Positions 22,119-59,334 of a DNA stretch of 64,000 bases are shown here, one piece after another. Location: NCBI GenBank assembly GCA_041499965.1, contig JBGQLG010000008.1, positions 6,360 to 70,359 of the forward strand, written 5' to 3'. How positions within the stretch are numbered: position 1 is the stretch's first letter; each line of letters starts with the position of its first letter. The stretch comes from Candidatus Methylomirabilia bacterium. GTDB taxonomy: Bacteria; Methylomirabilota; Methylomirabilia; Rokubacteriales; CSP1-6. Under the pieces are notes generated by a model. The model was given only the letters and a program-made list of their open reading frames with translations. It was not told the origin of the DNA and did no database searches. The position numbers were made by a program, and so were the translations under genes.

Positions 22119-22622
22119 TTACTTGCGGGGGCGGCGGGCGGCGAGAATCAGGTTGCAGATTTCGCGGAGGGCGCCGTGGCCGGGTTTGGCGCGGGTGATG
22201 TAGGTGGCGGCGCGGCGGACCTCGGGGACGGCGTCAGCGACGGCGACGGCCAGGCCGACGGCGCGCATCGCGGGGAGGTCGCCGAGGTCGTCGCCGACGT
22301 AGCAGACGGTCGTGGGGTCGAGGTGGTGGCGGGCGACGAGGTCGGCGATGGCCTGGGCCTTGTCGGTGACGTTCTGGTGGACCTCGGCGATGCCGAGGTC
22401 GCGCGCGCGGCGGGTGACGATGGTCGTCTGCTTGCGCGTGACGATGGCGGTCAGCACGCCGGCCTCGCGCAGGAGCACGAGGCCCTGGCCGTCGCGGACG
22501 TCGAAGCGCTTGAGCTCGTCCCCGTTCTCGGTGTAGTAGAGACCGCCGTCGGTGAGGACGCCGTCCACGTCGGTGACGAGCGCGCGGACGGCGGCCCAGC
22601 GCGGCCGGCGGGCGGGGCTCAC
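22119..22622 (-). CDS. HAD-IIIA phosphatase, KdsC-like (3-deoxy-ulosonate phosphate phosphatase family)
   Basis: GTGA overlap. Motifs LVTDVDGVLTDG, AIVTRK and YVGDDLGD. 167 aa. Confidence 0.8.
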   Translation of the reverse strand: MSPARRPRWAAVRALVTDVDGVLTDGGLYYTENGDELKRFDVRDGQGLVLLREAGVLTAIVTRKQTTIVTRRARDLGIAEVHQNVTDKAQAIADLVARHHLDPTTVCYVGDDLGDLPAMRAVGLAVAVADAVPEVRRAATYITRAKPGHGALREICNLILAARRPRK

Positions 22623-23887
22623 GCGCCGGCCCCGCCCGGGCCGGGCCCGGGGTCGAGCGCGAACGGCAGCGCCATGAAGGCCAGGGCGACGAGCAGCACC
22701 TCGGTGTCGCCGAAGTTGTACTCGAAGAGCCCGCCGACGAGAAACGTCACGACGGCGGCCAGCGAGCCGAGCACGAGCGCGCGATCGGCCGCCGCCGCGG
22801 CCGGCAGCCGCCGCAGCACCGCGAGGCCGCGCGCGAGGCACGCCACGAAGATCCACAGCCACGCCACCAGGCCGAGCACCCCGCGTTCGACCGTGATCTG
22901 CAGCGGCGTGTTGTGCAGGTGGCTGGTGGAGTGTCGCAGGGCCTCGGGGGTCGCCACGCTCGGGTAGACGCGCTTGACCTGGCCGGGCCCGATGCCCGTC
23001 AGTGGATGCTCGAGCACGAGCCGCCGGCCCGCGGCCAGCATCGCCAGCCGGTCGCGGGTCGTGTCGTCAGCGGCGCTGCCGATCGTTCGCACGCGTGCGC
23101 CCACGCCGGGCAGGGCCACCAGCACCGCGGCGACCAGCAGCACCAGCGCGATGGCGGCGACGACGCCGCGCCGGCCCAGGCCGGCCAGCGCGGCCAGCGC
23201 CCCCACCACGAAGCCGAGCCACGCTCCGCGCACGTAGGTGAGGGCCAGGGCGGCCCCGCTCACGAGCCAGACGGGGGCGAGCCACCACGCCTCCGCGCGC
23301 AGTCGGGCCAGCCGCGGCAGCGTCGCCGTCAGGGCCAGCGCCAGGATCCCCGCCAGCGTCATGTAGATGCTGTAGAAGCCGCGGGCGCGCGTGCACTTGC
23401 GCAGGAAGTTCTCCATCAGCGTCGTGCCGTGGGCGACGGCCTCGGGGCCCGGGCACGCGGCCACCTGCGCGATCCCGGCCACCGCCGCCCCGGCGAGGGC
23501 CAGGACCAGCCAGGTCGCGAAGCGCCGCGCCGTCGCGGCGTCCGGCAGCGCCGTGGCGATCACGAACAGCGCCGCCAGGTCCAGCAGGCCCTTGCAGGCG
23601 GCGAGGCTCTCCAGCGGGCGCGCGGAGGCCAGCGCGGCCAGCACGCTGCAGGCCGCAAAGGCCGCGACGGGCCCCAGCAGCGGCATTCGCAGCGCCACGC
23701 CCCGCCCCGTCCGCCACGCCAGCAGCAGCCACGCCGCCAGCGCCGCCAGCGTGATCTGACTCACCGAGATCGAGAACGCCAGCCCGAAGACCAGCGCCAC
23801 CAGCAGGAACGTCCGCGTCGAATGCAGCCAATCCCACGCGCCGATAGCGACGCCCGGGCTCACACTGGCCGGACGCGTGGAACTCAC
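22619..23887 (-). CDS. O-antigen ligase / Wzy_C-domain membrane protein
   Basis: 422 aa with about 10-12 TM helices. The conserved loop is LRHSTSHLHNTPLQITVERGVLGL. Confidence 0.8.
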   Translation of the reverse strand: MSSTRPASVSPGVAIGAWDWLHSTRTFLLVALVFGLAFSISVSQITLAALAAWLLLAWRTGRGVALRMPLLGPVAAFAACSVLAALASARPLESLAACKGLLDLAALFVIATALPDAATARRFATWLVLALAGAAVAGIAQVAACPGPEAVAHGTTLMENFLRKCTRARGFYSIYMTLAGILALALTATLPRLARLRAEAWWLAPVWLVSGAALALTYVRGAWLGFVVGALAALAGLGRRGVVAAIALVLLVAAVLVALPGVGARVRTIGSAADDTTRDRLAMLAAGRRLVLEHPLTGIGPGQVKRVYPSVATPEALRHSTSHLHNTPLQITVERGVLGLVAWLWIFVACLARGLAVLRRLPAAAAADRALVLGSLAAVVTFLVGGLFEYNFGDTEVLLVALAFMALPFALDPGPGPGGAGA

Positions 23888-23951: not shown

Positions 23952-25340
23952 CTAATACGCGTTGCGGTTGCGGAACCCGAGCCACAGGGTCCGGAGGAGG
24001 ATCGAGAGATCGAAGGCCAGCGACCAGCGGGCGATGTATTCGAGGTCGTACTCGATGCGCTTCTCGATCGAGGTGTTGCCGCGCCAGCCGTTGATCTGGG
24101 CCCAGCCGGTGATCCCCGCTTTCATCTTGTGGCGCAGCATGTAGCCGGGCACGCGCCGGCGAAACTCCTCGACGAAGCTCGGGCGCTCGGGTCGCGGTCC
24201 CACCAGGCTCATGTCGCCGCGCAGCACGTTGACGAGCTGCGGCAGCTCGTCCAGGCTCCACGCGCGCAAGAAGGCGCCCACCCGCGTGCGGCGCGGGTCG
24301 TCGAGCACGGCCCACTGGGGACCGGACTCGGCCTCGGCGTCCCGGCGCATGGTGCGGAACTTCAGCATGCGGAAGCGGCGGCCGTCCAGTCCCATCCGCT
24401 CCTGCCGGAAGAGGATCGGCCGGCCCGAGGTCATCGCCACCGCGGCGGCGACGAAGGCCATCGGCAGCAGCGCCACCGCGAGGGCAGCGGTCCCGAGCAC
24501 CAGGTCGAGCGAGCGCTTGAGCACGCGGTTCCAGCCGTAGAGCGGCGACTCGCGCAGGTGGATGAAGGCGATCGACTCGAACTCCTCCACCCCGCCCCGC
24601 AGCGAGGCCAGGTTGAGCAGGTCGGGCACGAAGTGGATGTCGACCGGCTCGTCGCCGATCTCGTTGAGCACCGTGCTCAGTCGCGGATACTCGCTGTGGG
24701 GCAGCGCGATGATCACGATGTCCACCTGCCGCGTGGTCAGCACGGAGCGGATCTCCTCGATCCCGCCCAGCCAGCGTACCGGACTGCCCTCGCTCTCCTG
24801 CTTGTCGCTGAGCAGACCCAGGAGCTGAATGCCGGTGTCGGGGCGACGGCGCAGCACGCGCAGCACCTCGGCGGCCGGCTCGCCGCCGCCCACCACGACC
24901 GCGTAGCGCTGGTTGTAGCCGCGCCGGCGGGCGAATCGCAGGATCTCCCGAAAGGCCGCGCGGGAGAAGCTGACGCTCACGATCGACGCCACCCAGAACA
25001 TGAGGATGACGAGCCGCGAGTAGTCGTAGCCGTGAAAGAGGAACGTCATGACGGCCACGAGGACGAGGACGCCGAGGGTGGAGGCCTTGGCGATGTCGAA
25101 CCACTCGGACAGGTGCGAGCCCAGCCGGTTCGGCCGGTAGAGGTCGAACGTCTTGTAGGCGATGAACCACACGACGAGGATCGGCACGAGTTGCAGCGTG
25201 TAGTCCGAGAAGGGCGGGATGTCGCCGCGCCGGAACAGGCCGAAGCGCACGGCGTAGGCGCCGAGCCAGCACACCGCGATCAGCACGAGGTCGGTCGCCA
25301 GGGCCAGTTGCTCGAACAACCGCGAGTGGGCCTTCAGCAT
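23952..25340 (-). CDS. Initiating polyprenyl-phosphate hexose-1-phosphate transferase (WcaJ/WbaP-type PGT)
   Basis: N-terminal TM helices, a central Rossmann-like region, and a C-terminal sugar-transferase domain (MLKFRTM, LVGPRPERP, ITGWAQING). Confidence 0.9.
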   Translation of the reverse strand: MLKAHSRLFEQLALATDLVLIAVCWLGAYAVRFGLFRRGDIPPFSDYTLQLVPILVVWFIAYKTFDLYRPNRLGSHLSEWFDIAKASTLGVLVLVAVMTFLFHGYDYSRLVILMFWVASIVSVSFSRAAFREILRFARRRGYNQRYAVVVGGGEPAAEVLRVLRRRPDTGIQLLGLLSDKQESEGSPVRWLGGIEEIRSVLTTRQVDIVIIALPHSEYPRLSTVLNEIGDEPVDIHFVPDLLNLASLRGGVEEFESIAFIHLRESPLYGWNRVLKRSLDLVLGTAALAVALLPMAFVAAAVAMTSGRPILFRQERMGLDGRRFRMLKFRTMRRDAEAESGPQWAVLDDPRRTRVGAFLRAWSLDELPQLVNVLRGDMSLVGPRPERPSFVEEFRRRVPGYMLRHKMKAGITGWAQINGWRGNTSIEKRIEYDLEYIARWSLAFDLSILLRTLWLGFRNRNAY

Positions 25341-26578
25341 GCCGCCCCCGCCTGGAACGCCCGCCAGCGCTCCTGCACGAACTCGCCCAGGCGGCGCGCG
25401 AAGCGCGGCCGGTCGAACTGCGCGGCCCGCGCGCGCAGGGCCCGGGGCTCGAAGCGGCCGGCGCTGGCCTCGAACGTGGTGATCGCCGCGGCCAGCGCGT
25501 CCACCGTCGGCTCGGGGAAGAAGACGGCGGTCGGCGGCTCGGAGCCGTCGAGGCCGATCATCGTCTCCAGCGCGCCGCCGCGGGCCAGCGCGATGGTGGG
25601 GCGTCCGGCGGCCGCCGCCTCCAGCGGCACGATGCCGTAGTCCTCCACCGAGGGGAAGAGCACCGCCCGGCAGCGCGCGTAGAGCTCGGCCACCTCGGCG
25701 TCGGGGCGCCAGCCCAGGAACGTCACGCCCGGCCCGGCCAGCGCGCGCAGCCGCGCCTCCTGGGACCCGGTGCCGACCACGACGAGCCGGCGGCCGAGCC
25801 GGCCGGCCGCCGCCACCGCGAGGTCCACGCGCTTGTAGGGCACCAGCGCCGAGACCACCAGGTAGTAGTCGTCGACCGCCTCCGCGATGCAGAAGCGCGC
25901 CACGTCGACGGGCGGGTGGATGACCTGCGAGGCGCGGCCGTACACGCGGCGGATGCGATCGGCGATGTGATGCGAGATCGCCACGAACGCGTCGACGCCC
26001 TGCGTGCGCCGGTCCCAGCGCCGGAGCGCGGCGGCCACCGGCGGCAGCGCGGCCCGCGTGAGCCAGCCGGCGCCCTGCGTGTAGTCGGCTTCCAGGTCCC
26101 ACACGTAGCGCATCGGCGTGAAACAGTAGCAGAGGTGCAGCGCGCCGGCCGGAACGCGGACCGCCTTGGCCACGCAGTGGCTCAGCGACAGCACGAGGTC
26201 GTAGCCGTCCAGCGCCAGCCCGCGCACGGCGGCCGGGAACAGCGGCAGGTAGTAACGGTAGCGCGTCGCGGCCCCGGGCAACCGCTGCACGAACGAGGTG
26301 ACGATGCGTCGGCGCTCGATCACCGGGCTCACGCTGCCGGGGACGTGCAGGAGCGTGAAGAGCGGCGCGTCGGGAAACAGCTCGCAGGCGACCTCCAGGC
26401 AGCGCTCACCGCCCCGCATGCCGGTGAGCCAGTCGTGCACCAGGGCCACGCGGGGCCCGGCCGACGCCGACGATCGGCCGCCGGGCTCGCTCAGCGCGAG
26501 CGCAGGGGGAGGCGCGGTCGCCAATTCCCGAGGAGGTCGACGAGCGTCTGGTACTCGGCGAGGTGCATCGCCGGCCAT
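25334..26578 (-). CDS. Glycosyltransferase family 4
   Basis: VALVHDWLTGMRGGE N-terminal region and EX7E region PSVEDYGIVPLEAAAAG. The start is uncertain (ATG 26578 or GTG 26449). Confidence 0.8.
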   Translation of the reverse strand: MAGDAPRRVPDARRPPRELATAPPPALALSEPGGRSSASAGPRVALVHDWLTGMRGGERCLEVACELFPDAPLFTLLHVPGSVSPVIERRRIVTSFVQRLPGAATRYRYYLPLFPAAVRGLALDGYDLVLSLSHCVAKAVRVPAGALHLCYCFTPMRYVWDLEADYTQGAGWLTRAALPPVAAALRRWDRRTQGVDAFVAISHHIADRIRRVYGRASQVIHPPVDVARFCIAEAVDDYYLVVSALVPYKRVDLAVAAAGRLGRRLVVVGTGSQEARLRALAGPGVTFLGWRPDAEVAELYARCRAVLFPSVEDYGIVPLEAAAAGRPTIALARGGALETMIGLDGSEPPTAVFFPEPTVDALAAAITTFEASAGRFEPRALRARAAQFDRPRFARRLGEFVQERWRAFQAGAAC

Positions 26579-26582: not shown

Positions 26583-27689
26583 CTACACCCCCAGGACCTC
26601 CCTGTAGACGCCGTCCAGCGCCGCCAGCATGCCGCGGACGTCGAATTCGCTGCGGGCGCGCGTGCGATTCTCGGCGCCCAGCCGCGCGCGCAGGCCGGCG
26701 TCACCCAGCACCGCGGTCAGGGCCCCCGCGACGGCCTCGGGGGTGGCGGCCACCAGGCCGGCGGAGTCCTCGCCGAGCACCTCGCGGTGGGCGGAGATGT
26801 CGCTGGCGACGACCGGCAGGCCGAGCGCCATCGCCTCCACCACCGCCAGCGGCAACCCCTCCTTGCGGGCCGGCGACGCGAACACGTCGAAGGCCGGGAA
26901 CAGCCGCGCCGCCTCGGGCACTTCGCCGGCGAAGCGCACGCGCGCGGTGATCCTCAGCGCCGCGGCCAGCGCCCGCAGGCGCGCGGCCTCCGGCCCGTCA
27001 CCGATGAGCGCGAGCGTGACGGCCGGCGCCAGCGCCGCCGCGCGCAGGAGCACGTCGAGTCGCTTGACCTCGTCCAGGCGCGCCGCGCAGCCCACCACGG
27101 CCCCGGCCGCGCCGAGGCCGAGCGCCTCGCGCGCCTCGCCGCGGGTGAGCGCGGCGGCGGTGAGGCGGGCCACGTCGACGCCGTTGAGGATCACGCGGCT
27201 CTGGCCGGCGGTGAACAGGCCGAGCGCGAGCCCCTCGCGCTCCTGCGCGCGCGAGACGTTGACGACGATGCGCGTGGCGGCCGACAGCCGGCGCTCCAGC
27301 GCCAGGTAGGCGACGCGGGCCGGCGCCGGGTAGCGCTCGTAGTGGATCCCGTGCAGGGTGTGGACGGCCGGGACGCCGGCCAGCCGGGCACCGATCCGCC
27401 CGTGGACGCCGGCGCCCTTGCCGTGGGAGTGCACCAGGCGCACGCCGCGCGCGCGGATCAGCCGGACGAGGCGCAGGAGCGTGCGCGGATCGAGGCGGTC
27501 CGTGCGCAGCATCTCGGTCTCCACGCCGGCCGCCCGGAACTGCTCGAACAGGGGACCGTCGGCCGGCCCGGCCACGATCGAGCGCCAGCCGTGCGCGCGC
27601 AGGCCGCGCGCTACGGCCAAGACGTGCTGCGGCCCGCCGCCGGCCCGGGTGGAGACCAGGAGCTGCAGGACCGGGATCGGCTCCGTCAC
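26583..27689 (-). CDS. Glycosyltransferase family 4
   Basis: GTGA overlap with the upstream gene. GT-B fold with ARKEGLPLAVVEAMALGLPVV. Confidence 0.85.
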   Translation of the reverse strand: MTEPIPVLQLLVSTRAGGGPQHVLAVARGLRAHGWRSIVAGPADGPLFEQFRAAGVETEMLRTDRLDPRTLLRLVRLIRARGVRLVHSHGKGAGVHGRIGARLAGVPAVHTLHGIHYERYPAPARVAYLALERRLSAATRIVVNVSRAQEREGLALGLFTAGQSRVILNGVDVARLTAAALTRGEAREALGLGAAGAVVGCAARLDEVKRLDVLLRAAALAPAVTLALIGDGPEAARLRALAAALRITARVRFAGEVPEAARLFPAFDVFASPARKEGLPLAVVEAMALGLPVVASDISAHREVLGEDSAGLVAATPEAVAGALTAVLGDAGLRARLGAENRTRARSEFDVRGMLAALDGVYREVLGV

Positions 27690-41598: not shown

Positions 41599-41599
41599 C

Positions 41600-50914: not shown

Positions 50915-51358
50915 TCAGGCCCCGGCCACGCGCAGCTCCAGCACGACCGCCTCCTCGCCGCCCCGATGCTCGACGCCGACCGACTCGAAGCCGCACGCCC
51001 GGAACATGGCCAGCGAGCGCACGTTGTGGGCGAGCACGGTCGCCCGCGGCCGCACGTCGGTGCGCTCCGCCCGCAGCGCGCGCACGGCCTGGCTCAGCAT
51101 GGCGCGGCCCTGGCCGTGGCCGCGACGCTCGGGCGCCACCGCGACGTCGATCTCGGCCACGTCGCCGTCGAGGTCGAAGCGCACCTGCCCCACCGGCCCA
51201 GCGGCGTCGGCGAAGATCCACAGCCGGGTCGCGTCGGAGTCCAGGCGCTGCCGCAGCCACGCCACGTGGGCGTCGTAGGGGATCGGCGCCTTGCTGAACG
51301 CGTGGCGCCGCGTCTCGGCGTCGTTGGCCCAGCGCCAGAGCAGCGCCGCGTCGTCCAT
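50915..51358 (-). CDS. pseH: GNAT N-acetyltransferase, PseH-like
   Basis: 147 aa. The N-terminus is LLWRWANDAETRRHAF and the acetyl-CoA motif is RRGHGQGRAML. It lies adjacent to pseI. ATG 51358 was chosen over the overlapping 51385. Confidence 0.6.
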   Translation of the reverse strand: MDDAALLWRWANDAETRRHAFSKAPIPYDAHVAWLRQRLDSDATRLWIFADAAGPVGQVRFDLDGDVAEIDVAVAPERRGHGQGRAMLSQAVRALRAERTDVRPRATVLAHNVRSLAMFRACGFESVGVEHRGGEEAVVLELRVAGA

Positions 51359-51365
51359 GGCCGCC

Positions 51366-54678: not shown

Positions 54679-55865
54679 CGCTGGTAGTGCCCCAGGACCT
54701 TCCACAGCGCGGCCACGACGTCCTCGACGTCGGCGTCGGTCATGCCGGGGAAGATGGGCAGCGAGAAGATGCGAGACGTCGCGTCCTCGGCGACCGGGCA
54801 CAGCCCGCGGGCATAGCCCAGCCGTGCGTAGTAGGGATGCCAGTACGCCGGCACGTAGTGCATCGTCACGCCGATGCCCTCGGCTCGCAACGCGGTGAAC
54901 ACCGCGTCGCGTCCCACGCGCAGCCGTGGGGGCTCGACCAGCACCGGGAAGATGTGCCAGGCGTGCCGCACGTCGGGCGCAATGCGCGGCACCGCCAGCC
55001 CGGGCAGGTCCTTCAGCGCGACGACGTACCGCTCGGCGATCGCCTCGCGCTTGGCCAGGAACTGGCCGAGCTTGGGGAGCTGCGAGAGGCCCAGCGCGCA
55101 CTGGATGTCGGTCAGGCGGTAGTTGAACCCCAGATCGACCATCGGCGACCACAGCGCGCCGCTGGCCTGGCGATCGGCGCTGTCGACGGCAATGCCGTGG
55201 TTGCGGAACCGGCGCAGCCGCCGGGCCAGCTCGTCGTCGTCGGTCGTCACCACGCCGCCCTCCCCGGTGGTCACGTGCTTGACGGGATGGAGGCTGAAGA
55301 TCGTCAGGTCGCTCAGCGAGCCGACCGGCCGCCCGGCCGCCTCGGCCCCGAGCGCGTGGGCGGCGTCCTCGACGACGAGCACGCCCCGCCGGCGGGCCAG
55401 CGCCCGGAGGGTGTCGAGCTCGCACGGCTGGCCGGCGAAGTCCACCGGCGCCAGCACGCGCGTCTTCGGGGTCAGCGCGGCCTCGGCACACGCGGGATCG
55501 AGGTTCAGCGTGTCGGCGCGGATGTCGGCAAAGACGGGCCGCGCGCCGAGATAGAGGGCGGCGTTGGACGTGCCCACGAAGGTCAGCGGCGTGGTCACGA
55601 CCTCGTCGCCGGCGCCGACGCCCGCCGCGAACATCGCCGCGTGCAGCGCCGCCGTCCCCGAGCTGACCGCCACGGCGTGGCGGGCGCCCACCCGCGCCGC
55701 GAAGCAGGCCTCGAACTCGGCCACCGTGGGCCCGGTGGTGAGGAACGTCCCGCGCAGCACCGCGGTCACGGCGGCGACGTCGTCGTCGCCGATGAGCTGG
55801 CGACCGTACGGCAGCAGGGCGGCCCGCACCGGCCGTCCCCCCTCGATGGCCAGGCGCTCACCCAC
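54675..55865 (-). CDS. pseC: DegT/DnrJ/EryC1 aminotransferase, PseC-like
   Basis: The PLP-lysine motif is FSLHPVKHVTTGEGG. It also has DAAHALGA. Confidence 0.8.
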   Translation of the reverse strand: MGERLAIEGGRPVRAALLPYGRQLIGDDDVAAVTAVLRGTFLTTGPTVAEFEACFAARVGARHAVAVSSGTAALHAAMFAAGVGAGDEVVTTPLTFVGTSNAALYLGARPVFADIRADTLNLDPACAEAALTPKTRVLAPVDFAGQPCELDTLRALARRRGVLVVEDAAHALGAEAAGRPVGSLSDLTIFSLHPVKHVTTGEGGVVTTDDDELARRLRRFRNHGIAVDSADRQASGALWSPMVDLGFNYRLTDIQCALGLSQLPKLGQFLAKREAIAERYVVALKDLPGLAVPRIAPDVRHAWHIFPVLVEPPRLRVGRDAVFTALRAEGIGVTMHYVPAYWHPYYARLGYARGLCPVAEDATSRIFSLPIFPGMTDADVEDVVAALWKVLGHYQR

Positions 55866-56844
55866 GCGCCAGCTCCTGCATCTGGGCCGGCGACAGCCAG
55901 TGCCCGTTGGTCTCGCTCGAGTAGCGGAAGCCGGTGCCCGGCCGCTTGCCGCCCTCCAACCCGGTGAAGGCCCACGAGGGATAGATCGGCTCCAGCACGA
56001 ACATGTCGTCGTGCTCGACGACCTGGCGGCTCTCCTCCTCGGCGATGAGCGTCTCGTGCAGCTTCTCGCCGGGGCGGATGCCGATCACGTCCACCCGGCA
56101 GCCGGGCGCCACCGAGTCGACCAGGTCGAGGATTCGCATGCTGGGGATCTTGGGCACGAAGATCTCGCCGCCGTGCATCAGCTCCGTGCAGCGGACGGCG
56201 AAGCCCACGCCCTCCTCCAGACGCAGCCAGAAGCGCGTCATGCCGGGATCCGTCACCGTGACCGTGCCCGTCGCTCGCTGGGCGGCGAACAGCGGGATGA
56301 CGCTCCCGCGGCTGCCGATGACGTTGCCGTACCGGACCACGCTGAAGATCGTGCCGCGGCCGTAGCCGTAGGCGTTGCCCTGCACGAAGAGCTTCTCGGC
56401 GCAGAGCTTGGTGGCACCGTACAGGTTGATCGGGTTGACCGCCTTGTCGGTGCTGATGGCCATCACCCGCTTGACGCCCTGGTCGATGGCGGCGTCGATG
56501 ACGTTCTGGGCGCCGATGACGTTGGTCTGGATGGCCTCGAACGGATTGTACTCGCAGGAGGGGATCTGCTTGAGCGCCGCGGCGTGGACGACCACGTCGA
56601 TGCCGTGCATGGCCCGCTGCAGCCGGTCGCGATCGCGGACGTCGCCGACGAAGAAGCGCAGCGAGGGATGCTTGAGCCGCGCCATCATCTCCGACTGCTT
56701 GAGCTCGTCGCGGCTGAAGACGACCAGCCGGCGCGGCCGGTATCGTTCCAGCATGACGTCGACAAACTTGTTGCCGAACGACCCGGTACCCCCGGTCACC
56801 AGCACCGCCGCCTCGCTCCAGTCGAGCGCGCCCCTCACCGTCAC
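55858..56844 (-). CDS. pseB: UDP-N-acetylglucosamine 4,6-dehydratase (inverting), PseB-like
   Basis: Motifs VLVTGGTGSFG, HAAALKQIPSCEYNP and STDKAVNPINLYGATK. Confidence 0.85.
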   Translation of the reverse strand: MTVRGALDWSEAAVLVTGGTGSFGNKFVDVMLERYRPRRLVVFSRDELKQSEMMARLKHPSLRFFVGDVRDRDRLQRAMHGIDVVVHAAALKQIPSCEYNPFEAIQTNVIGAQNVIDAAIDQGVKRVMAISTDKAVNPINLYGATKLCAEKLFVQGNAYGYGRGTIFSVVRYGNVIGSRGSVIPLFAAQRATGTVTVTDPGMTRFWLRLEEGVGFAVRCTELMHGGEIFVPKIPSMRILDLVDSVAPGCRVDVIGIRPGEKLHETLIAEEESRQVVEHDDMFVLEPIYPSWAFTGLEGGKRPGTGFRYSSETNGHWLSPAQMQELARG

Positions 56845-56860: not shown

Positions 56861-58708
56861 TCACCGCACGCGCTCCAGCGCGGCGGTGTCGCCGAATTGC
56901 AGGCGATGCAGATGGCGGTACGTCTCGCTCCGCTCCAGCAGCTCCGCGTGCCGTCCCACCGCCTCCACGCCTGCGCGGCCGAGCACGACGATGCGGTCGG
57001 CCCGCAGCACCGTGGACAGGCGGTGGGCGATCACCAGCGCGGTCGTGCCCTGCACCGCCCGGTCGATGGCCTCCCAGACCACGCGCTCCGACTCGCTGTC
57101 GAGCGCGCTGGTGGCCTCGTCGAGCACGAGGACGGCGGGCCGGCCGACCACCGCCCGCGCGATGGCGACACGCTGGCGCTGGCCGCCCGACAGGCGGATG
57201 CCGCGATCACCGACCAGCGTGGCGTAGCCGTCCGGCAGCTCCGTGACGAAGTCGTGGGCGTTGGCCACCCGGGCGGCGCGGAGCACCTCGGCCTCGTCCA
57301 GTCCCTCGCGGCCGTAGACGATGTTGTCGCGGATGGTGGTGTTGAAGAGCAGCGCCTCCTGGGAGACGACGCCGAACAGTCGCCGGTACTCGGCCTGGCG
57401 CAGGGTGCGCACGTCGCGTCCGTCGAGCGACACCACGCCCGTCACCGGATCGTAGAACCGCAGCAGCAGGTCGGCCACGGTGGACTTGCCCACGCCGCTG
57501 GCGCCCACCAGCGCCACCATCTCGCCGCGGACGATCTCGAAGCTCACGCCCTGCAGCACCGGCTCGTCGCCGTAGCTGAACGACACGTCGGCGAAGACGA
57601 TGCGGTCGCGGAACTCCCCGACGGGTTCGGTGCCGTCGGTCGTCTCGGGCCGCGCGGCGAACAGCTCGGCCACGCGCCCGGTCGCCGCCAGCACGCCCTG
57701 CACGGTGGACCAGGCCCCCGCCAGCAGGCCGATCTGGGCGACCGCGGCCCGGCCCACGTAGAGGAAGAGGAAGAACGTCGCCGCCGTCAGCCGGCCGGCC
57801 AGGAGCTCGTACACGGCCAGCAGGATCAGCCCGGCCTCGACCACGTAGTTGACGAAGCTCCGCGCCGGCTCCTCGATGTGCTTGTGGGCGCTCCGCTTGA
57901 CGTTGACGCGAACGACGTCGGCCAGCACGCGGGCCAGCCGCCCCTGCTCGAAGGCCTCGGCGCCGAACGACTTCACCGTCCGGATGCTCAGCAGCGTCTC
58001 CTGGAAGCGGGCGGCCACCTCGGCCAGCAGCGAGAACTGGTCGGTCATGAAGCGCCGCACCGGTCCGCGGACACCGCGGGTGACCAGCCAGTGCAGCACG
58101 ACCGCCGCCAGCGCCGCACCGACCAGGCGCGGGCTCGTGCTGGCCAGCAGGTATCCGTAGAAGAGGATCAGCAGCGGCGCGCTGAAGAGCGTTCCCACGA
58201 TCGTCTCCAGCCCGTGGGTGGCGGCCAGCGTGTCGTTGGACAGCCGCGACACCAGCTCGCCCGTGCGGTGGCGGGTGAAGAAGCTCATGGACAGCGTCAG
58301 GATGTGACGGAAGAGGTCGGCCTGCAGCGCCGTACCGGCGCGCATGCGGATCCACAGCCCCAGCATGTAGTTCCCGAAGTCGAGGATCGCCTTGATCGTG
58401 CCGACGCCGACGTAGGCCAGGCACAGCAGCGCGATGGCGCGGAACCGGTCGTCCACCGCGCTGACACCGATCCAGGCGAAGAACGCGGCGCCGAGGTTGC
58501 TCAGGGTCAGGCCGGTCACCCGCGACGGAGGCGCGCCGGCGCCGCCGAGGGCCAGGTTCAGGATCGGCGCCATCAGGATCGGGAACACCGCCGCCAGCAC
58601 GGTGCCGATCGCGCTGCCGATCAGCAGCAGCGTGACGGCGGGCCAGTGCGGGGCGACGTAGCGCCGCAGCAGCCAGGCGAACCGGCGCAGATCGTCCGCC
58701 CGCTTCAT
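56861..58708 (-). CDS. ABC exporter, fused permease/ATPase (MsbA/PglK/Wzk-like)
   Basis: Six-TM N-terminal domain. Walker A is GASGVGKST, the signature is LSGGQRQR and Walker B is VLVLDEATS. ATGA overlap with the regulator gene. Confidence 0.9.
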   Translation of the reverse strand: MKRADDLRRFAWLLRRYVAPHWPAVTLLLIGSAIGTVLAAVFPILMAPILNLALGGAGAPPSRVTGLTLSNLGAAFFAWIGVSAVDDRFRAIALLCLAYVGVGTIKAILDFGNYMLGLWIRMRAGTALQADLFRHILTLSMSFFTRHRTGELVSRLSNDTLAATHGLETIVGTLFSAPLLILFYGYLLASTSPRLVGAALAAVVLHWLVTRGVRGPVRRFMTDQFSLLAEVAARFQETLLSIRTVKSFGAEAFEQGRLARVLADVVRVNVKRSAHKHIEEPARSFVNYVVEAGLILLAVYELLAGRLTAATFFLFLYVGRAAVAQIGLLAGAWSTVQGVLAATGRVAELFAARPETTDGTEPVGEFRDRIVFADVSFSYGDEPVLQGVSFEIVRGEMVALVGASGVGKSTVADLLLRFYDPVTGVVSLDGRDVRTLRQAEYRRLFGVVSQEALLFNTTIRDNIVYGREGLDEAEVLRAARVANAHDFVTELPDGYATLVGDRGIRLSGGQRQRVAIARAVVGRPAVLVLDEATSALDSESERVVWEAIDRAVQGTTALVIAHRLSTVLRADRIVVLGRAGVEAVGRHAELLERSETYRHLHRLQFGDTAALERVR

Positions 58709-59334
58709 GCGCGCTGCCCGTTGGCGACCGGCGCCGCGGCGCGCAGCGTGACGCACTTGTCGCGGGGCACGCCGCTGGCGACCAGCATGTCGATGGTCGC
58801 GTCGGGACGCTCGAAGGTCGCCACCACCACCGCGTCGAGATCCTCGCCCGTCAGCTCCGCGACGCCCCGGACGGGGAAGCCGAGGAAGCGACCAGCGGGC
58901 TCGGGACCGAACACGGCGACGGGCTCCAGCCCCAGCTCGCGCAGCGTGAGGTACGCCAGCTCGGCCGCCTCGCCCGTGCCGTAGAACGCCACCCGCTTGA
59001 GCCCGTCGGCGGCCATGCGCCCCAGCGCCTCGCGCAGCGTCTGCCGCGTGCGCCGGTACAGCCGGAGCGAGTAGACCATGTGCTCGTAGGTGAGCCGGCT
59101 CTTCTCGGCCAGCCCCTTCGGCGTCAGCAGGTAGCGTAACCGCTTGCGGGCGGCCGGGCGGTCGTTGAAGTGGACGACCTTGATGTAGCCCTTGCGGGCC
59201 AGGCGCTTGAGGCACAGGTTGGCGAGGCCGAGCGCGACGCCGAGACGCTCGGCCAGCGCGCGCTGGGTCAGTGGCGTGCCTTCCTCGATCGCGGTGAGCA
59301 GCCGCAGGTCGCGGTCGAGGTGGCGCTCGCTCAC
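58705..59334 (-). CDS. Winged-helix (MarR-like) transcriptional regulator with C-terminal Rossmann-like domain
   Basis: The N-terminal wHTH is LTQRALAERLGVALGLANLCLKRLARKGYI. The C-terminal segment is RVAFYGTGEAAELAYL...DAVVVAT (GxGxxA). It is the first gene of the long minus-strand block. Confidence 0.7.
   Translation of the reverse strand: MSERHLDRDLRLLTAIEEGTPLTQRALAERLGVALGLANLCLKRLARKGYIKVVHFNDRPAARKRLRYLLTPKGLAEKSRLTYEHMVYSLRLYRRTRQTLREALGRMAADGLKRVAFYGTGEAAELAYLTLRELGLEPVAVFGPEPAGRFLGFPVRGVAELTGEDLDAVVVATFERPDATIDMLVASGVPRDKCVTLRAAAPVANGQRA

What the first reader, a model, noticed from the sequence alone, without database searches (positions are those of the whole stretch)
22119..59334. 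37-kb, 33-gene single-strand glycan locus combining nonulosonic-acid, dideoxyhexose, radical-SAM and methylation chemistry with an ABC-flippase/ligase assembly logic
Every credible ORF from 59334 down to 22119 is on the minus strand. At least 14 junctions are 4-nt ATGA/GTGA overlaps. Only three gaps exceed 60 nt (45458-45673, 33473-33644, 23888-23951), and two of those are filled by repeats. By motif the content is: wHTH regulator; MsbA/PglK-like ABC exporter; pseB-pseC-pseG-x-pseI-pseH; carbamoyltransferase; hexapeptide acetyltransferase; PIG-L deacetylase; two B12-radical-SAM enzymes; Gfo/Idh/MocA oxidoreductase; cytidylyltransferase-aminotransferase fusion; five SAM methyltransferases; five GT4 and two GT2 transferases; ColD/ColC-like pair; a large polytopic membrane protein; WcaJ-type initiating transferase; Wzy_C/ligase-like protein; KdsC-like phosphatase. 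I see no Wzx, Wzz or Wzm/Wzt. The assembly route therefore looks like the uncommon PglK/Wzk-type ABC flippase plus ligase pathway, applied to an unusually heavily tailored glycan. I do not recognise this gene combination as a described cluster, but I cannot search.
Basis: partly seen in the sequence, partly recalled or inferred. Interest (0 to 1): 0.8.

Follow-up and report, generated by a model that had tools for sequence, protein, structure and literature searches.

The report
Modular surface-glycan locus of Rokubacteria
This is an intact 33-gene, one-strand cluster for a heavily decorated cell-surface sugar chain from an uncultured soil bacterium (Rokubacteria/Methylomirabilota); it is built from swappable gene modules at a fixed chromosomal site, much like an O-antigen locus, and it contains several enzyme families that nobody has characterised.

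Summary
There are 33 intact minus-strand genes from 22119 to 59334. Fourteen of 32 junctions can be 4-nt overlaps, and two gaps hold repeats. Pfam, NCBIfam and PDB searches support nearly every family call. The host is a Rokubacteria/Methylomirabilota bacterium.

New findings:
1. The cluster is not unique. All 33 genes lie in the same order in the public MAG MFD02840.bin.3.55 (82-87% nt identity), and 31 lie in MAG AR5. No version is characterised.
2. It sits at a conserved site, between a peptide importer-YjbQ flank and an ECF-sigma-HPPK-FolB flank.
3. It is a nested mosaic. Relatives lack the 14-16 kb pseudaminic-acid module, the carbamoyltransferase-acyltransferase-deacetylase trio, one radical-SAM gene, or the rSAM2-ColD-Fcl-GT2-M534 block.
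4. The "large polytopic membrane protein" is a new-family GT-C glycosyltransferase, paired with a polyprenyl-phosphate-sugar synthase. This implies a periplasmic decoration step.
5. The unassigned 425-aa protein has a GT-B fold.
6. The ABC exporter is conserved across the phylum and always heads the locus, but it is neither an MsbA nor a PglK equivalog.

No Wzx, Wzz or Wzm/Wzt is present in any variant. The ABC-flippase plus ligase route is therefore plausible but unproven. Verdict: new variant of a known kind, moderate interest.

The parts
58705..59334 (-). wHTH regulator (209 aa), MarR_EPS-like. Its stop overlaps the ABC start by 4 nt.
   Evidence: Pfam HTH_24/MarR_2. NCBIfam TIGR04176 MarR_EPS 68.7 bits, cut-off 88. 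The pairing with the ABC gene is conserved in L084-L086 and in Omnitrophota L058.
56861..58708 (-). Fused TMD-NBD ABC exporter (615 aa), type IV/ABCB architecture. Candidate lipid-linked glycan flippase.
   Evidence: Pfam ABC_membrane + ABC_tran. Best NCBIfam hits MsbA 386/602 and HepA 384/725, all below cut-off; PglK matches the NBD only. More than 120 orthologue clusters at 64-88% identity within the phylum. It always heads the variable locus.
55858..56844 (-). PseB, UDP-GlcNAc 4,6-dehydratase (inverting)
   Evidence: NCBIfam TIGR03589 464 bits, cut-off 408.
54675..55865 (-). PseC aminotransferase
   Evidence: NCBIfam TIGR03588 433 bits, cut-off 423.5.
53698..54678 (-). PseG-like UDP-sugar hydrolase
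   Evidence: The only NCBIfam hit is TIGR03590 PseG, 110 bits against a cut-off of 153.6.
52424..53701 (-). X425: GT-B fold protein of an unassigned family. Candidate CMP-nonulosonate transferase (inferred).
   Evidence: No Pfam, NCBIfam or PDB sequence hit. About 138 homologues, all 'hypothetical'. AF2 pLDDT 90, pTM 0.90. Foldseek best matches are TagF/TarL, NeuC/UDP-GlcNAc 2-epimerases and MshA, all prob 1.0. It is present only where the Pse module is present.
51366..52427 (-). NeuB-family nonulosonate synthase (PseI-like)
   Evidence: Pfam NeuB + SAF. NCBIfam NeuB 302/400 and PseI 267/340, both below cut-off.
50915..51385 (-). GNAT N-acetyltransferase (PseH-like)
   Evidence: Pfam Acetyltransf_1. 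NCBIfam PseH 38.8/93.
49182..50912 (-). NodU/CmcH-type carbamoyltransferase (accessory trio, gene 1)
   Evidence: Pfam Carbam_trans_N + Carbam_trans_C. Absent in L001, L002 and L084. Present in MFD02840, AR5, Nitrospiria L091 and Omnitrophota L090.
48130..49185 (-). Hexapeptide-repeat acyltransferase with an unassigned ~230-aa N-terminal part (accessory trio, gene 2)
   Evidence: Pfam Hexapep at residues 244-278. NCBIfam Vat/CatB-like, C-terminal part only.
47447..48127 (-). PIG-L/LmbE-type de-N-acetylase (accessory trio, gene 3)
   Evidence: Pfam PIG-L, E = 2.6e-24. Recurs at 54-62% identity in 15 of 80 PseF/AT loci from other phyla.
45674..47434 (-). rSAM1: B12-binding radical SAM enzyme with a non-canonical CX6CX2C cluster motif
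   Evidence: Pfam B12-binding + Radical_SAM. C298-x6-C305-x2-C308 is conserved as CPYAxxACDYC in orthologues from four phyla. Orthologues at 68-95% identity in L007, L022, L084, L089 and L091. Absent in L001 and L002.
45458..45677 (.). Giant hairpin element (59-nt arms) between rSAM1 and Gfo
   Evidence: AR5 and L084 have 8-15 nt at this junction. MFD02840 has a 270-nt spacer of different sequence that also folds into a giant hairpin.
44456..45457 (-). Gfo/Idh/MocA sugar oxidoreductase. Its stop overlaps the fusion gene start by 4 nt.
   Evidence: Pfam. Best PDB match is 1,5-anhydro-D-fructose reductase. Found directly upstream of the PseF/AT gene in 52 of 80 loci across phyla.
42384..44459 (-). 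Fusion of a divergent CMP-sugar synthetase (CTP_transf_3) and a class III (GSA-aminomutase-like) aminotransferase
   Evidence: Pfam. N-terminal domain: KdsB-like 55-70 bits, PseF only 32 against a cut-off of 206. AT domain: PRK06209 426/486; PLP lysine conserved, and relatives include aminoglycoside C-6' aminotransferases. At least 549 related loci in many phyla. The two domains are separate genes in L084 and apparently in L091; in L085 the cytidylyltransferase is called as a 267-aa stand-alone gene that runs off the fetched locus.
41600..42364 (-). SAM methyltransferase MT1
   Evidence: Pfam Methyltransf_11/25. Present in L086 without the Pse module, 89% identity.
40816..41598 (-). SAM methyltransferase MT2
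   Evidence: Pfam. Replaced in AR5.
39668..40792 (-). GT4 glycosyltransferase a (the most variable GT)
   Evidence: Pfam Glycos_transf_1 + Glyco_transf_4. Identity 91% in MFD02840, 58-59% in L083/L086, 32% in AR5.
38886..39704 (-). SAM methyltransferase MT3
   Evidence: Pfam.
37609..38889 (-). GT4 glycosyltransferase b
   Evidence: Pfam.
36497..37621 (-). GT4 glycosyltransferase c
   Evidence: Pfam.
34945..36477 (-). rSAM2: B12-binding radical SAM enzyme with canonical CX3CX2C. First gene of the dideoxyhexose/GT-C module.
   Evidence: Pfam. Motif CPFQCTFC at residue 224. The block 30278-36515 is absent as a unit in L086.
33645..34922 (-). ColD-type NDP-4-keto-6-deoxyhexose 3-dehydratase
   Evidence: PDB 2gms ColD, E = 1.4e-84. 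The motif FSHHIS aligns with ColD YSH188HIA, so His replaces the aminotransferase Lys. NCBIfam RfbH 339/423.
33473..33652 (.). 4 x 45-nt tandem array inserted at the ColD/Fcl junction
   Evidence: Absent in MFD02840 and AR5, where the Fcl start overlaps the ColD stop.
32516..33472 (-). GDP-fucose-synthase-like epimerase/reductase (ColC-like)
   Evidence: PDB GDP-L-fucose synthases, E = 3e-63. NCBIfam Fcl 277/500.
31815..32519 (-). GT2a (234 aa): polyprenyl-phosphate-sugar synthase type
   Evidence: Best NCBIfam hits are AglJ, Dol-P-hexose transferase and PpgS polyprenyl-P-GalNAc synthase. No TM segment. Always directly upstream of M534.
30238..31842 (-). M534: GT-C fold membrane glycosyltransferase of a new family (DUF6798-related)
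   Evidence: AF2 pLDDT 90, pTM 0.88. The top 16 Foldseek hits are all GT-C enzymes: DPY19, AftA, STT3, ArnT, AftD, EmbA/EmbB. D62 in the first periplasmic loop is invariant. About 100 homologues, all 'hypothetical'. Among GTDB representatives it occurs only in Rokubacteria/Methylomirabilota plus one Deferrimicrobiaceae MAG.
29445..30236 (-). SAM methyltransferase MT4
   Evidence: Pfam.
28492..29430 (-). SAM methyltransferase MT5
   Evidence: Pfam.
27686..28468 (-). GT2b glycosyltransferase (EpsE/WcaA-like). The start may be at 28495.
   Evidence: Pfam Glycos_transf_2. NCBIfam. L081 gene call is 269 aa.
26583..27689 (-). GT4 glycosyltransferase d
   Evidence: Pfam.
25334..26449 (-). GT4 glycosyltransferase e
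   Evidence: Pfam.
23952..25340 (-). WcaJ-type polyprenyl-phosphate hexose-1-phosphate transferase (initiating enzyme)
   Evidence: NCBIfam TIGR03023 477 bits, cut-off 411. Pfam Bac_transf + CoA_binding_3.
22619..23863 (-). Wzy_C-domain membrane protein. WaaL-like ligase is favoured; a polymerase or O-OTase role is not excluded.
   Evidence: Pfam Wzy_C, E = 2.5e-22, and no PglL_A hit. Invariant R212, R270/R272, H315/H317. H317-N-x9-G-xx-G present. No PDB sequence or profile hit. Its stop overlaps the KdsC start by 4 nt.
22119..22622 (-). KdsC-subfamily HAD phosphatase
   Evidence: NCBIfam TIGR01670 152 bits, cut-off 107; KdsC equivalog 168/208. Retained in L083, which has no nonulosonate genes.

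Best explanation
The region is the hypervariable surface-glycan locus (functionally O-antigen-like) of a diderm Rokubacteria/Methylomirabilota bacterium. It sits at a fixed chromosomal site and is assembled from exchangeable modules.

Shown here:
- A conserved frame: MarR_EPS-type regulator and ABC exporter at the 5' end; WcaJ, a Wzy_C protein and KdsC at the 3' end; GT4, GT2 and methyltransferase genes in between.
- Optional modules inserted into that frame: (i) a pseudaminic-acid-type nonulosonate module (PseB/C/H/G/I plus Gfo oxidoreductase and a CMP-synthetase/class-III-aminotransferase fusion, with GT-B protein X425); (ii) nested in it, rSAM1 and a carbamoyltransferase/acyltransferase/deacetylase trio; (iii) MT1-MT2; (iv) rSAM2-ColD-Fcl-GT2a-GT-C.

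Inferred mechanism:
1. WcaJ primes undecaprenyl phosphate with a hexose-1-phosphate.
2. Five GT4 enzymes, GT2b and probably X425 build one long, O-methylated oligosaccharide on the cytoplasmic face. It includes a CMP-activated, further aminated, re-acylated, carbamoylated and C-methylated nonulosonic acid.
3. The ABC exporter flips the finished lipid-linked glycan.
4. In the periplasm, the GT-C enzyme M534 adds a 3,6-dideoxyhexose (possibly C-methylated). ColD/Fcl/rSAM2 make this sugar and GT2a loads it onto polyprenyl phosphate.
5. The Wzy_C protein transfers the glycan to lipid A-core.
For: Locus nature and modularity:
- HMM annotation of all 33 genes.
- blastn breakpoints against relatives. 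L083 goes from the ABC gene straight to GT4a and lacks window 40819-56852. L086 lacks 42448-56785 and 30278-36515. L084 lacks 47363-50928. L001 and L002 lack 45458-50968.
- Both flanks are identical across relatives.

Nonulosonate module:
- PseB and PseC pass equivalog cut-offs.
- The Gfo-PseF/AT pair is conserved next to PseB/C/G/I in 52-70 of 80 loci from many phyla.
- The AT domain keeps its PLP lysine and is related to sugar C-6' aminotransferases. Gfo is related to sugar keto-reductases.

Dideoxyhexose and periplasmic step:
- ColD with the diagnostic His and Fcl-like reductase.
- GT2a resembles Dol-P/polyprenyl-P sugar synthases.
- M534 has a GT-C fold.
- These five genes are gained or lost as one block, and GT2a-M534 adjacency is conserved.

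Export and transfer:
- No MOP/Wzx, Wzz, Wza or ABC-2 protein in the window or in the complete locus variant L083. The only polytopic proteins are the ABC exporter, M534, WcaJ and the Wzy_C protein.
- The ABC gene is coupled to an EPS-type regulator and always heads the locus.
- The Wzy_C protein has the Arg/Arg/His set shared by WaaL and PglL, lacks PglL_A, and lies inside a glycan locus next to KdsC (PMC3643930).
- Rokubacteria are predicted diderms with LPS genes (PMC5712423).
- A precedent for ABC flippase plus WaaL exists in H. pylori (PMC2841628).
Against: - No step has biochemical support, and no glycan structure exists for any member of this phylum.
- The ABC exporter fails the MsbA, HepA and PglK equivalog cut-offs, and its TMD is no closer to lipid or LLO flippases than to drug or peptide exporters.
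- Its 64-88% conservation across the phylum would also fit a housekeeping role such as lipid A-core export.
- A Wzx gene could lie elsewhere in the genome.
- Wzy_C domains also occur in true polymerases, and no structural comparison with WaaL could be made.
- PseG, PseI, PseH and the cytidylyltransferase domain are below equivalog cut-offs, so the nonulosonate may not be pseudaminic acid itself.
- No GDP-mannose 4,6-dehydratase is in the cluster to feed ColD.
- The position attacked by Gfo/AT and the substrates of both radical SAM enzymes are unknown.
- Operon continuity is untested.
Confidence: 0.5

Rival explanations
1. Wzx/Wzy-dependent heteropolysaccharide (O-antigen, capsule or EPS). The Wzy_C protein is the repeat-unit polymerase. 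Wzx, the chain-length regulator and the outer-membrane exporter are encoded elsewhere. The ABC exporter is the phylum's lipid A-core flippase (MsbA function) or exports something unrelated.
For: - Wzy_C domains occur in polymerases (PMC4815439, listed).
- The ABC protein's best NCBIfam hit is MsbA, and it is far more conserved (64-88%) than the neighbouring GTs, as expected for a housekeeping gene.
- WcaJ-type initiation is typical of Wzy-dependent EPS such as colanic acid.
Against: - No Wzx, Wzz or Wza in any of the locus variants examined, although the flanks are fixed.
- Eight or nine transferases is many for a repeat unit.
- The MsbA score is far below the cut-off (386 against 602), and the TMD is not specifically MsbA-like.
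- The ABC gene is translationally coupled to an EPS-type regulator, and the pair also sits next to a Pse cluster in Omnitrophota.
- The Wzy_C protein carries the WaaL/PilO-type H-N-x9-G-xx-G segment (the motif itself is recalled from memory).
Confidence: 0.2
2. General protein O-glycosylation system. The Wzy_C protein is an O-oligosaccharyltransferase that puts the finished oligosaccharide on S-layer, pilin or other envelope proteins. This would resemble the Tannerella/Bacteroidetes or Neisseria/Geobacillus systems, which have nonulosonate-capped, methylated glycans.
For: - Wzy_C is shared by WaaL and O-OTases, and the catalytic Arg/Arg/His are common to both (PMC3643930).
- A long, single, heavily tailored oligosaccharide with a terminal nonulosonate, a deoxyhexose and methyl groups is typical of protein glycans (established knowledge of Tannerella forsythia and Campylobacter glycans, recalled from memory).
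- Many transferases and no polymerase or chain-length genes.
Against: - No PglL_A (PF15864) signal.
- No candidate acceptor protein gene is adjacent.
- The gene lies inside a glycan locus and is coupled to KdsC, which PMC3643930 gives as a WaaL-like rather than PglL-like context.
Confidence: 0.2
3. Two independent pathways that merely share a site. The inserted nonulosonate module would supply a CMP-sugar for a different target (for example flagellin or pilin glycosylation, or a separate polymer). The frame genes would make an unrelated Und-PP-linked glycan.
For: - The Pse module is dispensable for the frame (L083 and L086 lack it).
- The same module occurs in many phyla in quite different contexts.
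- None of the frame GTs can be assigned to CMP-sugar use.
Against: - The module is inserted between the ABC gene and GT4a on the same strand, with short or overlapping junctions.
- It carries its own GT-B protein X425, which co-varies with it.
- No Maf-type flagellin transferase is present.
- The insertion point is the same in six relatives: L001, L002, L084, L085, AR5 and MFD02840.
Confidence: 0.1

Closest known systems
Helicobacter pylori LPS O-antigen pathway (WecA - cytoplasmic GTs - Wzk ABC flippase - WaaL; PMC2841628) and the related Campylobacter jejuni Pgl pathway (PglC - GTs - PglK - PglB)
   Same: - Complete glycan built on undecaprenyl phosphate in the cytoplasm.
- A single fused TMD-NBD ABC exporter instead of Wzx.
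- No polymerase or chain-length genes.
- En-bloc transfer by a Wzy_C-family ligase (H. pylori).
   Different: - The ABC protein is not an orthologue of Wzk or PglK: only the NBD matches the PglK model, and the TMD is not specifically similar.
- Initiation is by a WcaJ-type large PGT, not WecA or PglC.
- There is an extra periplasmic GT-C step.
- All genes are clustered in one locus, whereas the H. pylori genes are scattered.
Enterobacterial O-antigen/capsule loci as hypervariable cassettes between fixed flanks (for example galF-gnd), including the E. coli O55 colitose genes ColD/ColC
   Same: - Fixed chromosomal site and conserved flanks.
- Module gain and loss among close relatives.
- A ColD-type 3-dehydratase with the diagnostic histidine, followed by a fucose-synthase-like reductase.
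   Different: - No Wzx/Wzy/Wzz or Wzm/Wzt, and no gmd/manB/manC in the locus.
- The dideoxyhexose genes are linked to a B12-radical-SAM enzyme and to a polyprenyl-P-sugar synthase/GT-C pair, not to a cytoplasmic colitosyltransferase.
Pseudaminic acid pathway PseB-PseC-PseH-PseG-PseI-PseF (C. jejuni / H. pylori)
   Same: All six enzymatic roles have a counterpart. PseB and PseC pass NCBIfam equivalog cut-offs.
   Different: - PseG, PseI and PseH are below cut-offs.
- The cytidylyltransferase is divergent (PseF model 32 bits against a cut-off of 206) and is fused to a class III aminotransferase.
- There is an obligatory Gfo/Idh/MocA partner.
- Extra tailoring genes are present: CX6CX2C B12-rSAM, carbamoyltransferase, hexapeptide acyltransferase and PIG-L.
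- An unfused version of the AT + cytidylyltransferase pair sits in the L. pneumophila Sg6/Sg12 LPS cluster (PMC3694923).
Polyprenyl-phosphate-sugar synthase + GT-C pairs (ArnC/ArnT, GtrB/GtrC, mycobacterial PpgS/Rv3779, Ppm1/PMT)
   Same: A small cytoplasmic GT2 of the Dol-P/polyprenyl-P sugar synthase type lies directly upstream of a GT-C fold membrane protein with an acidic first periplasmic loop and a C-terminal periplasmic domain.
   Different: - M534 has no sequence-detectable relation to any of them: no Pfam hit above threshold and no PDB sequence hit.
- No GtrA-like flippase gene is present.
- The presumed donor sugar is a 3,6-dideoxyhexose, which to my knowledge is not described for such pairs.

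Membership tests
PglK/Wzk-type lipid-linked-oligosaccharide ABC flippase | Fused TMD-NBD half-transporter of the type IV exporter fold | tested here: met
   Pfam ABC_membrane (26-316) + ABC_tran (385-534) in one 615-aa protein.
PglK/Wzk-type lipid-linked-oligosaccharide ABC flippase | Sequence membership (NCBIfam NF050066 PglK equivalog, cut-off 1000) | tested here: not met
   176.5 bits, NBD only (residues 365-576). PglK structures are not among the 60 best PDB matches for the whole protein or for the TMD.
PglK/Wzk-type lipid-linked-oligosaccharide ABC flippase | Flips Und-PP-linked glycan; genetically required for glycan display | not testable with these tools
   Only contextual evidence is available. 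The gene heads every locus variant, and no Wzx or ABC-2 protein is in the locus.
MsbA (lipid A-core flippase) | NCBIfam TIGR02203 equivalog (cut-off 602) | tested here: not met
   386 bits. The TMD scores only 32.9 bits to an MsbA structure, below many drug and peptide exporters.
O-antigen ligase WaaL | Wzy_C domain in a large periplasmic loop of a ~10-12 TM protein | tested here: met
   Pfam Wzy_C, residues 200-336, E = 2.5e-22. About 10 hydrophobic segments.
O-antigen ligase WaaL | Conserved Arg, Arg, His (E. coli R215, R288, H338; PMC3643930) | tested here: met
   R212, R270/R272 and H315/H317 are invariant in six orthologues. H317-N-x9-G328-xx-G331 is present. The equivalence of positions is inferred from spacing, not from a structural alignment.
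O-antigen ligase WaaL | Transfers Und-PP-glycan to lipid A-core | not testable with these tools
   Context only: 4-nt overlap with KdsC, and the phylum is predicted to make LPS (PMC5712423).
PglL-type O-oligosaccharyltransferase | PglL_A motif (PF15864) flanking Wzy_C (PMC3643930) | tested here: not met
   Wzy_C is the only Pfam hit at E <= 0.001.
Wzx/Wzy-dependent pathway | MOP-family flippase (Wzx) and chain-length regulator (Wzz/PCP) in the locus | tested here: not met
   None of the 33 proteins hits Polysacc_synt/MOP, Wzz or Poly_export. The precomputed Pfam hits of the L083 locus show none either. Genes elsewhere in the genome could not be examined.
ABC-2 (Wzm/Wzt) O-antigen pathway | Separate ABC-2 permease and ATPase | tested here: not met
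   No ABC2_membrane protein and no stand-alone ATPase in the locus.
Pseudaminic acid biosynthesis (PseBCHGIF) | PseB and PseC equivalogs | tested here: met
   TIGR03589 464 bits (cut-off 408) and TIGR03588 433 bits (cut-off 423.5).
Pseudaminic acid biosynthesis (PseBCHGIF) | PseG, PseH, PseI, PseF equivalogs | tested here: inconclusive
   PseG 110/154, PseH 39/93, PseI 267/340 (NeuB 302/400), PseF 32/206. Each is the best or only specific hit except PseF, where KdsB-type models score higher.
ColD (GDP-4-keto-6-deoxymannose 3-dehydratase) | DegT fold with the active-site His replacing the Schiff-base Lys | tested here: met
   E = 1.4e-84 to 2gms. FSHHIS aligns with YSH188HIA, and the H188N mutant entry 3b8x marks the position.
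ColD (GDP-4-keto-6-deoxymannose 3-dehydratase) | GDP-sugar specificity and a Gmd partner | not tested
   No Gmd gene in the locus. The CDP-type E1 dehydrase is the next-best PDB relative (E = 8e-74), so the nucleotide is not settled.
GT-C glycosyltransferases | GT-C fold: N-terminal TM bundle, long first periplasmic loop with conserved acidic residue, periplasmic C-terminal domain | tested here: met
   AF2 pLDDT 90. The top 16 Foldseek hits are all GT-C, with E down to 4.5e-6, prob 1.0 for the first 14 and 0.90-0.91 for EmbA/EmbB, TMq 0.42-0.54 for the top 14 and 0.27-0.35 for EmbA/EmbB. D62 is invariant and D42 nearly invariant in loop 1.
GT-C glycosyltransferases | Uses a polyprenyl-phosphate-linked donor | not testable with these tools
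   Inferred from the conserved upstream GT2a of the AglJ/Dol-P-hexose/PpgS type.
Class B (B12-dependent) radical SAM enzymes | N-terminal B12-binding domain plus a radical SAM domain with a Cys triad | tested here: met
   Both domains are present in both proteins. rSAM2 has CX3CX2C. rSAM1 has CX6CX2C, conserved in orthologues. The chemistry (methylation or other) is not testable here.

The most novel reading that the evidence does not exclude
The locus encodes glycan chemistry and machinery with no described equivalent, in three respects.
(1) The Gfo oxidoreductase plus class-III aminotransferase/CMP-synthetase module (at least 549 related loci found, across many bacterial phyla and one archaeal MAG) makes a new class of nonulosonic acids with an extra amino group. 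In this lineage that sugar is further de-N-acetylated, re-acylated, carbamoylated and C-methylated by a CX6CX2C B12-radical-SAM enzyme.
(2) A 3,6-dideoxyhexose is carried on polyprenyl phosphate and added in the periplasm by a phylum-restricted new GT-C family.
(3) The finished glycan is flipped by an ABC exporter lineage that evolved this role independently of PglK and Wzk.
Probability: 0.25. Interest if true: 0.7.

Novelty: new variant of a known kind. Interest (0 to 1): 0.45.

Why it matters
Rokubacteria/Methylomirabilota are abundant, uncultured soil bacteria whose cell surface is unknown. This locus is probably their main variable surface antigen. Its module-by-module variation among close relatives suggests strong diversifying selection, for example from phages, predators or plant and soil interactions.

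The work gives concrete, testable candidates for uncharacterised enzyme families:
- a GT-C family;
- a GT-B family;
- a non-canonical B12-radical-SAM family;
- a very widespread oxidoreductase/aminotransferase/cytidylyltransferase module for nonulosonic acid tailoring.

It also offers a second, independent case in which an ABCB-type exporter may replace Wzx in a ligase-dependent pathway. None of this overturns current concepts of glycan assembly. The value is in enzyme discovery and in understanding the surface diversity of an uncultured phylum.

Tried and rejected
- **Actinomycete origin.** I first guessed this from the 72% GC. It is rejected: the closest relatives are Methylomirabilia/Rokubacteria MAGs.
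- **Exact-sequence look-up of the fusion protein.** Found nothing, probably a start-codon difference.
- **PDB sequence searches.** Searches with M534, X425 and the Wzy_C protein, and a 6-sequence Wzy_C profile, gave no usable hit.
- **M534 as Wzx or Wzy.** Rejected by the fold search: only GT-C enzymes match, and MOP/MATE transporters appear only at E > 0.5.
- **ABC protein as MsbA or PglK.** Neither is supported by NCBIfam cut-offs or by a TMD-only PDB search.
- **Literature searches.** Searches for Rokubacteria or Methylomirabilis with pseudaminic or nonulosonic acid returned nothing. One search call failed on syntax.
- **Hairpin as a dispersed mobile element.** A 30-mer is unique in the window. 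A 22-mer core gives only six single, chance-like hits in unrelated taxa among 185,579 species genomes. This is not demonstrated.
- **Promoter, terminator and RNA scans.** The promoter/terminator scan shows no excess over shuffles. Rfam gives no hit in the window. Neither informs on transcription units.
- **Tandem array as an N-terminal extension of Fcl.** The frame is open but has no in-frame start, and the array is absent in relatives. Rejected.

Full report
**1. Checking the observation**

The window is 72% GC, so long spurious ORFs occur in all frames. Codon-position GC and a self-trained codon model resolve this. They place plus-strand genes up to 21693 and an unbroken minus-strand series from 22119 to the window end.

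My start-codon model gives 10 exact 4-nt overlaps and 6 longer overlaps. Allowing any in-frame start, 14 of 32 junctions can be [A/G]TGA overlaps. Public gene calls on near-identical or related contigs choose the overlapping start at three of the four extra junctions.

The 216-nt gap at 45458-45673 is a 59-nt-arm inverted repeat that folds at -188 kcal/mol, z = -13. The 172-nt gap at 33473-33644 is a 45-nt tandem array.

- There is a fourth gap over 60 nt, at 26450-26582.
- The same-strand run continues past 59334 into five unrelated flank genes.

Consensus promoter and terminator scans show nothing above shuffles. Rfam finds nothing in the window.

**2. What the genes are**

| Status | Genes and scores |
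|---|---|
| Above curated equivalog or subfamily cut-offs | PseB (464/408), PseC (433/423.5), WcaJ (477/411), KdsC subfamily (152/107) |
| Best hit, below cut-off | PseG, PseI/NeuB, PseH, MarR_EPS, RfbH/ColD-type, Fcl-type |

- The second DegT protein is clearly ColD-type. Its best PDB match is E. coli ColD (E = 1.4e-84), and its FSHHIS segment aligns with ColD's YSH188HIA. It therefore has the dehydratase histidine and not the aminotransferase lysine.
- The next gene resembles GDP-L-fucose synthases (E = 3e-63).
- The cytidylyltransferase domain of the fusion is divergent: PseF model 32 bits against a cut-off of 206, with KdsB-type models scoring somewhat higher.
- The aminotransferase domain is GSA-aminomutase-like with the PLP lysine intact. 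Its structurally characterised relatives include aminoglycoside C-6' aminotransferases.
- The Gfo protein's nearest structures are sugar keto-reductases.

Two proteins had no family assignment:
- **M534 (30238-31842).** A 40-sequence alignment gave a confident model (pLDDT 90, pTM 0.88). Its top 16 PDB fold matches are all GT-C glycosyltransferases: DPY19, AftA, STT3, ArnT, AftD, EmbA/EmbB. It is therefore neither Wzx nor Wzy.
- **X425 (52424-53701).** Also confidently modelled (pLDDT 90). It has a GT-B fold closest to TagF/TarL, NeuC-type epimerases and MshA.

GT2a, which overlaps the start of M534, best matches AglJ, Dol-P-hexose transferase and the mycobacterial polyprenyl-P-GalNAc synthase PpgS. 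It has no TM segment. This is the signature of a polyprenyl-phosphate-sugar synthase feeding a GT-C enzyme, as in ArnC/ArnT, GtrB/GtrC and PpgS/Rv3779 (established knowledge).

rSAM2 has a canonical CX3CX2C motif. rSAM1 has CX6CX2C (CPYAxxACDYC), conserved in orthologues from four phyla.

**3. Relatives and architecture**

The closest relatives are Methylomirabilia/Rokubacteria MAGs. Stitching loci from two searches shows the following:
- The 3.0-Mb contig CAWHBD010000001.1 of MAG MFD02840.bin.3.55 is collinear with window 58913-22132 at 82-87% nt identity. All 33 genes are in the same order, at 69-95% aa identity. The only break is the 45-nt tandem array, which is absent there.
- MAG AR5 (QHRW01000117.1) has 31 of the 33 genes. 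MT2 and GT4a are replaced.

The combination is therefore present in public data, but every copy is unannotated or 'hypothetical' and none is characterised. Literature searches found nothing.

The flanks are fixed:
- 5' side: epimerase, SBP_bac_5, two permeases, YjbQ, then wHTH-ABC.
- 3' side: WcaJ, Wzy_C, KdsC, then convergent anti-sigma, ECF sigma, HPPK and FolB.

Between the flanks, relatives differ by clean blocks (blastn breakpoints):

| Relative | What is missing relative to the window |
|---|---|
| L083 | ABC is followed directly by GT4a; 40819-56852 absent |
| L086 | 42448-56785 (nonulosonate module) and 30278-36515 (rSAM2-ColD-Fcl-GT2a-M534) absent |
| L084 | Has rSAM1 but lacks 47363-50928 (carbamoyltransferase-hexapeptide-PIG-L) and the hairpin |
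| L001, L002 | 45458-50968 absent |
| L085 | X425 absent |

The window is the most elaborate combination seen, a nested mosaic. The rest of the window (plus strand, 1-21693) is housekeeping.

**4. The nonulosonate module is widespread**

They come from Acidobacteriota, Desulfobacterota, Chloroflexota, Planctomycetota, Omnitrophota, Proteobacteria, CPR and even an archaeal MAG.

Counts among the best 80 loci:

| Gene | Loci with it (of 80) |
|---|---|
| PseC | 70 |
| PseB | 66 |
| PseI | 64 |
| PseG | 61 |
| Gfo | 52 (typically directly upstream of the fusion) |
| PseH | 39 |
| PIG-L | 15 |
| rSAM1 | 7 |

The CarbT-Hexa-PIG-L-rSAM1-Gfo sub-module also exists in a Nitrospiria MAG. In L084 the cytidylyltransferase and the aminotransferase are separate genes, and the split hits in L091 suggest the same there. 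In L085 the cytidylyltransferase is called as a 267-aa stand-alone gene that runs off the fetched locus. An unfused pair also sits beside PseG in the L. pneumophila Sg6/Sg12 LPS cluster (PMC3694923). I found no biochemical description of this Gfo/AT pair.

**5. Mechanism**

Shown: gene content, modularity, folds and conserved residues.

Inferred:
1. WcaJ primes undecaprenyl phosphate.
2. GT4a-e, GT2b and probably X425 extend one long oligosaccharide in the cytoplasm, and five SAM methyltransferases O-methylate it.
3. PseB/C/H/G/I make a Pse-type nonulosonate.
4. Gfo oxidises a secondary hydroxyl and the class-III aminotransferase aminates it.
5. PIG-L, the hexapeptide transferase and the carbamoyltransferase remodel N- and O-substituents, and rSAM1 probably C-methylates.
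6. The fused synthetase makes the CMP-sugar.
7. The ABC exporter flips the lipid-linked glycan.
8. ColD/Fcl (plus rSAM2) make a 3,6-dideoxyhexose. GT2a loads it on polyprenyl phosphate and M534 adds it in the periplasm. These five genes are gained and lost as one block.
9. The Wzy_C protein transfers the glycan to its acceptor.

**6.

For:
- No MOP/Wzx, Wzz, Wza or ABC-2 protein is in the window or in the complete L083 variant.
- The only polytopic proteins are the ABC exporter, M534, WcaJ and the Wzy_C protein.
- The ABC gene heads every variant and is translationally coupled to a MarR_EPS-like regulator. A wHTH-ABC pair also precedes a Pse cluster in an Omnitrophota MAG.
- H. pylori provides a precedent (PMC2841628).
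- The Wzy_C protein has invariant R212, R270/272 and H315/317, comparable with E. coli WaaL R215, R288 and H338 (PMC3643930).
- It has an H-N-x9-G-xx-G segment (the motif is recalled from memory) and lacks the PglL_A motif.
- It overlaps KdsC by 4 nt, and Rokubacteria are predicted diderms with LPS genes (PMC5712423).

Against:
- The ABC protein fails the MsbA (386/602), HepA (384/725) and PglK (NBD only) models.
- Its TMD is not specifically similar to any flippase.
- Its 64-88% conservation across the phylum would also suit a housekeeping exporter.
- Wzx could be encoded elsewhere.
- Wzy_C also occurs in polymerases, and no structural test was possible.

My estimates:

| Claim | Probability |
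|---|---|
| It is a modular polyprenol-linked surface-glycan locus | ~0.9 |
| The full chain including ABC flipping and ligation to lipid A-core | ~0.5 |
| Rival: Wzy-dependent polymer | 0.2 |
| Rival: protein O-glycosylation | 0.2 |
| Rival: two unrelated pathways sharing a site | 0.1 |

**7. Comparison, novelty and verdict**

It works like the H. pylori Wzk/WaaL pathway and like a cassette-type O-antigen locus. Its ABC protein is not a member of the PglK/Wzk or MsbA families by the sequence tests made. It contains a Pse-type pathway whose later enzymes are divergent, a bona fide ColD-type dehydratase, and a GT2/GT-C pair that works like ArnC/ArnT or PpgS/Rv3779 but belongs to a new, phylum-restricted family.

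This is a new variant of a known kind, not a new kind of system. A specialist would find the modular anatomy and the uncharacterised enzyme families useful but not startling, because glycan loci are notoriously diverse. Interest 0.45.

Noticed in passing
window 45458-45677: A 216-nt giant hairpin (59-nt arms, 92% complementary, -188 kcal/mol, z = -13) sits between the rSAM1 stop and the Gfo start. The closest relative (MFD02840) has, at the same junction, a 270-nt spacer of largely different sequence that also folds into a giant hairpin (-259 kcal/mol). AR5 and L084 have only 8-15 nt there. So the structure is conserved but the sequence is not. Its function is unknown (mRNA processing or stability element, attenuator, or recombination scar).
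   Followed up: partly
window 33473-33652: A 4 x 45-nt tandem array is inserted exactly at the ColD/Fcl junction. In MFD02840 and AR5 the Fcl start codon overlaps the ColD stop, so the array breaks a translational coupling. It is open in the Fcl frame but has no in-frame start.
   Followed up: partly
window 23915-23945: A perfect 13-bp stem with a 5-nt loop (GTCGGGGGGAGCG/CGCTCCCCCCGAC) lies in the 88-nt gap between WcaJ and the Wzy_C gene. No T-run follows, and the terminator scan did not call it.
   Followed up: no
L085:17413-20208 (GCA_040960975.1, JBFONB010000034): The rSAM1 orthologue is a 931-aa ORF. An ~870-nt insert, with a faint LAGLIDADG hit, sits between ...CPYASRACDY and CYAAYLG..., immediately before the third Cys of the radical-SAM cluster motif. 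This looks like an intein in the catalytic motif.
   Followed up: partly
window 45674-47434 (residues 298-308): rSAM1 has a CX6CX2C motif instead of the canonical CX3CX2C. It is conserved as CPYAxxACDYC in orthologues from Rokubacteria, Nitrospiria, Dehalococcoidia and Planctomycetales. More distant homologues in the same kind of locus have the canonical spacing.
   Followed up: partly
window 42384-44459; L084:20703-21860; L085:21212-21860; L091:15290-17363: The cytidylyltransferase and the class-III aminotransferase are one fused gene in the window and in most of the 80 loci. They are two adjacent genes in L084. In L085 the cytidylyltransferase is called as a 267-aa stand-alone gene, but its downstream neighbour lies outside the fetched locus. 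In Nitrospiria L091 the tblastn hits are split in a way that suggests separate genes. This is a fusion/fission polymorphism within one module.
   Followed up: partly
L099 (CAWHBD010000003.1:1259297-1280814): The MAG that carries the collinear 33-gene cluster has a second, 43%-identical M534 paralogue on another 2.4-Mb contig, with none of the other window genes nearby. L102 shows a similar distant paralogue near the same ECF-sigma flank.
   Followed up: no
stitched L089+L092 (CAWHBD010000001.1), PseC and PseF/AT genes: In MFD02840 the PseC and PseF/AT genes appear split by frameshifts (two tblastn pieces each). These are either long-read assembly errors or real pseudogenisation of the nonulosonate module in that population.
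   Followed up: no
This block is the conserved 5' flank of the glycan locus in all relatives examined. A sigma-70-like promoter match (60019-59990) precedes YjbQ.
   Followed up: partly
window 11204-12587 (minus strand): An RpoA-like gene (RNA_pol_A_bac, RNA_pol_L, alpha CTD) plus a 121-aa ORF with no family lie on the minus strand, alone among plus-strand housekeeping genes (hom, aspartokinase, ComEA/ComEC, MltG, ArgH, DapA/B, FolB, HPPK). This is away from any ribosomal protein cluster in the window.
   Followed up: no
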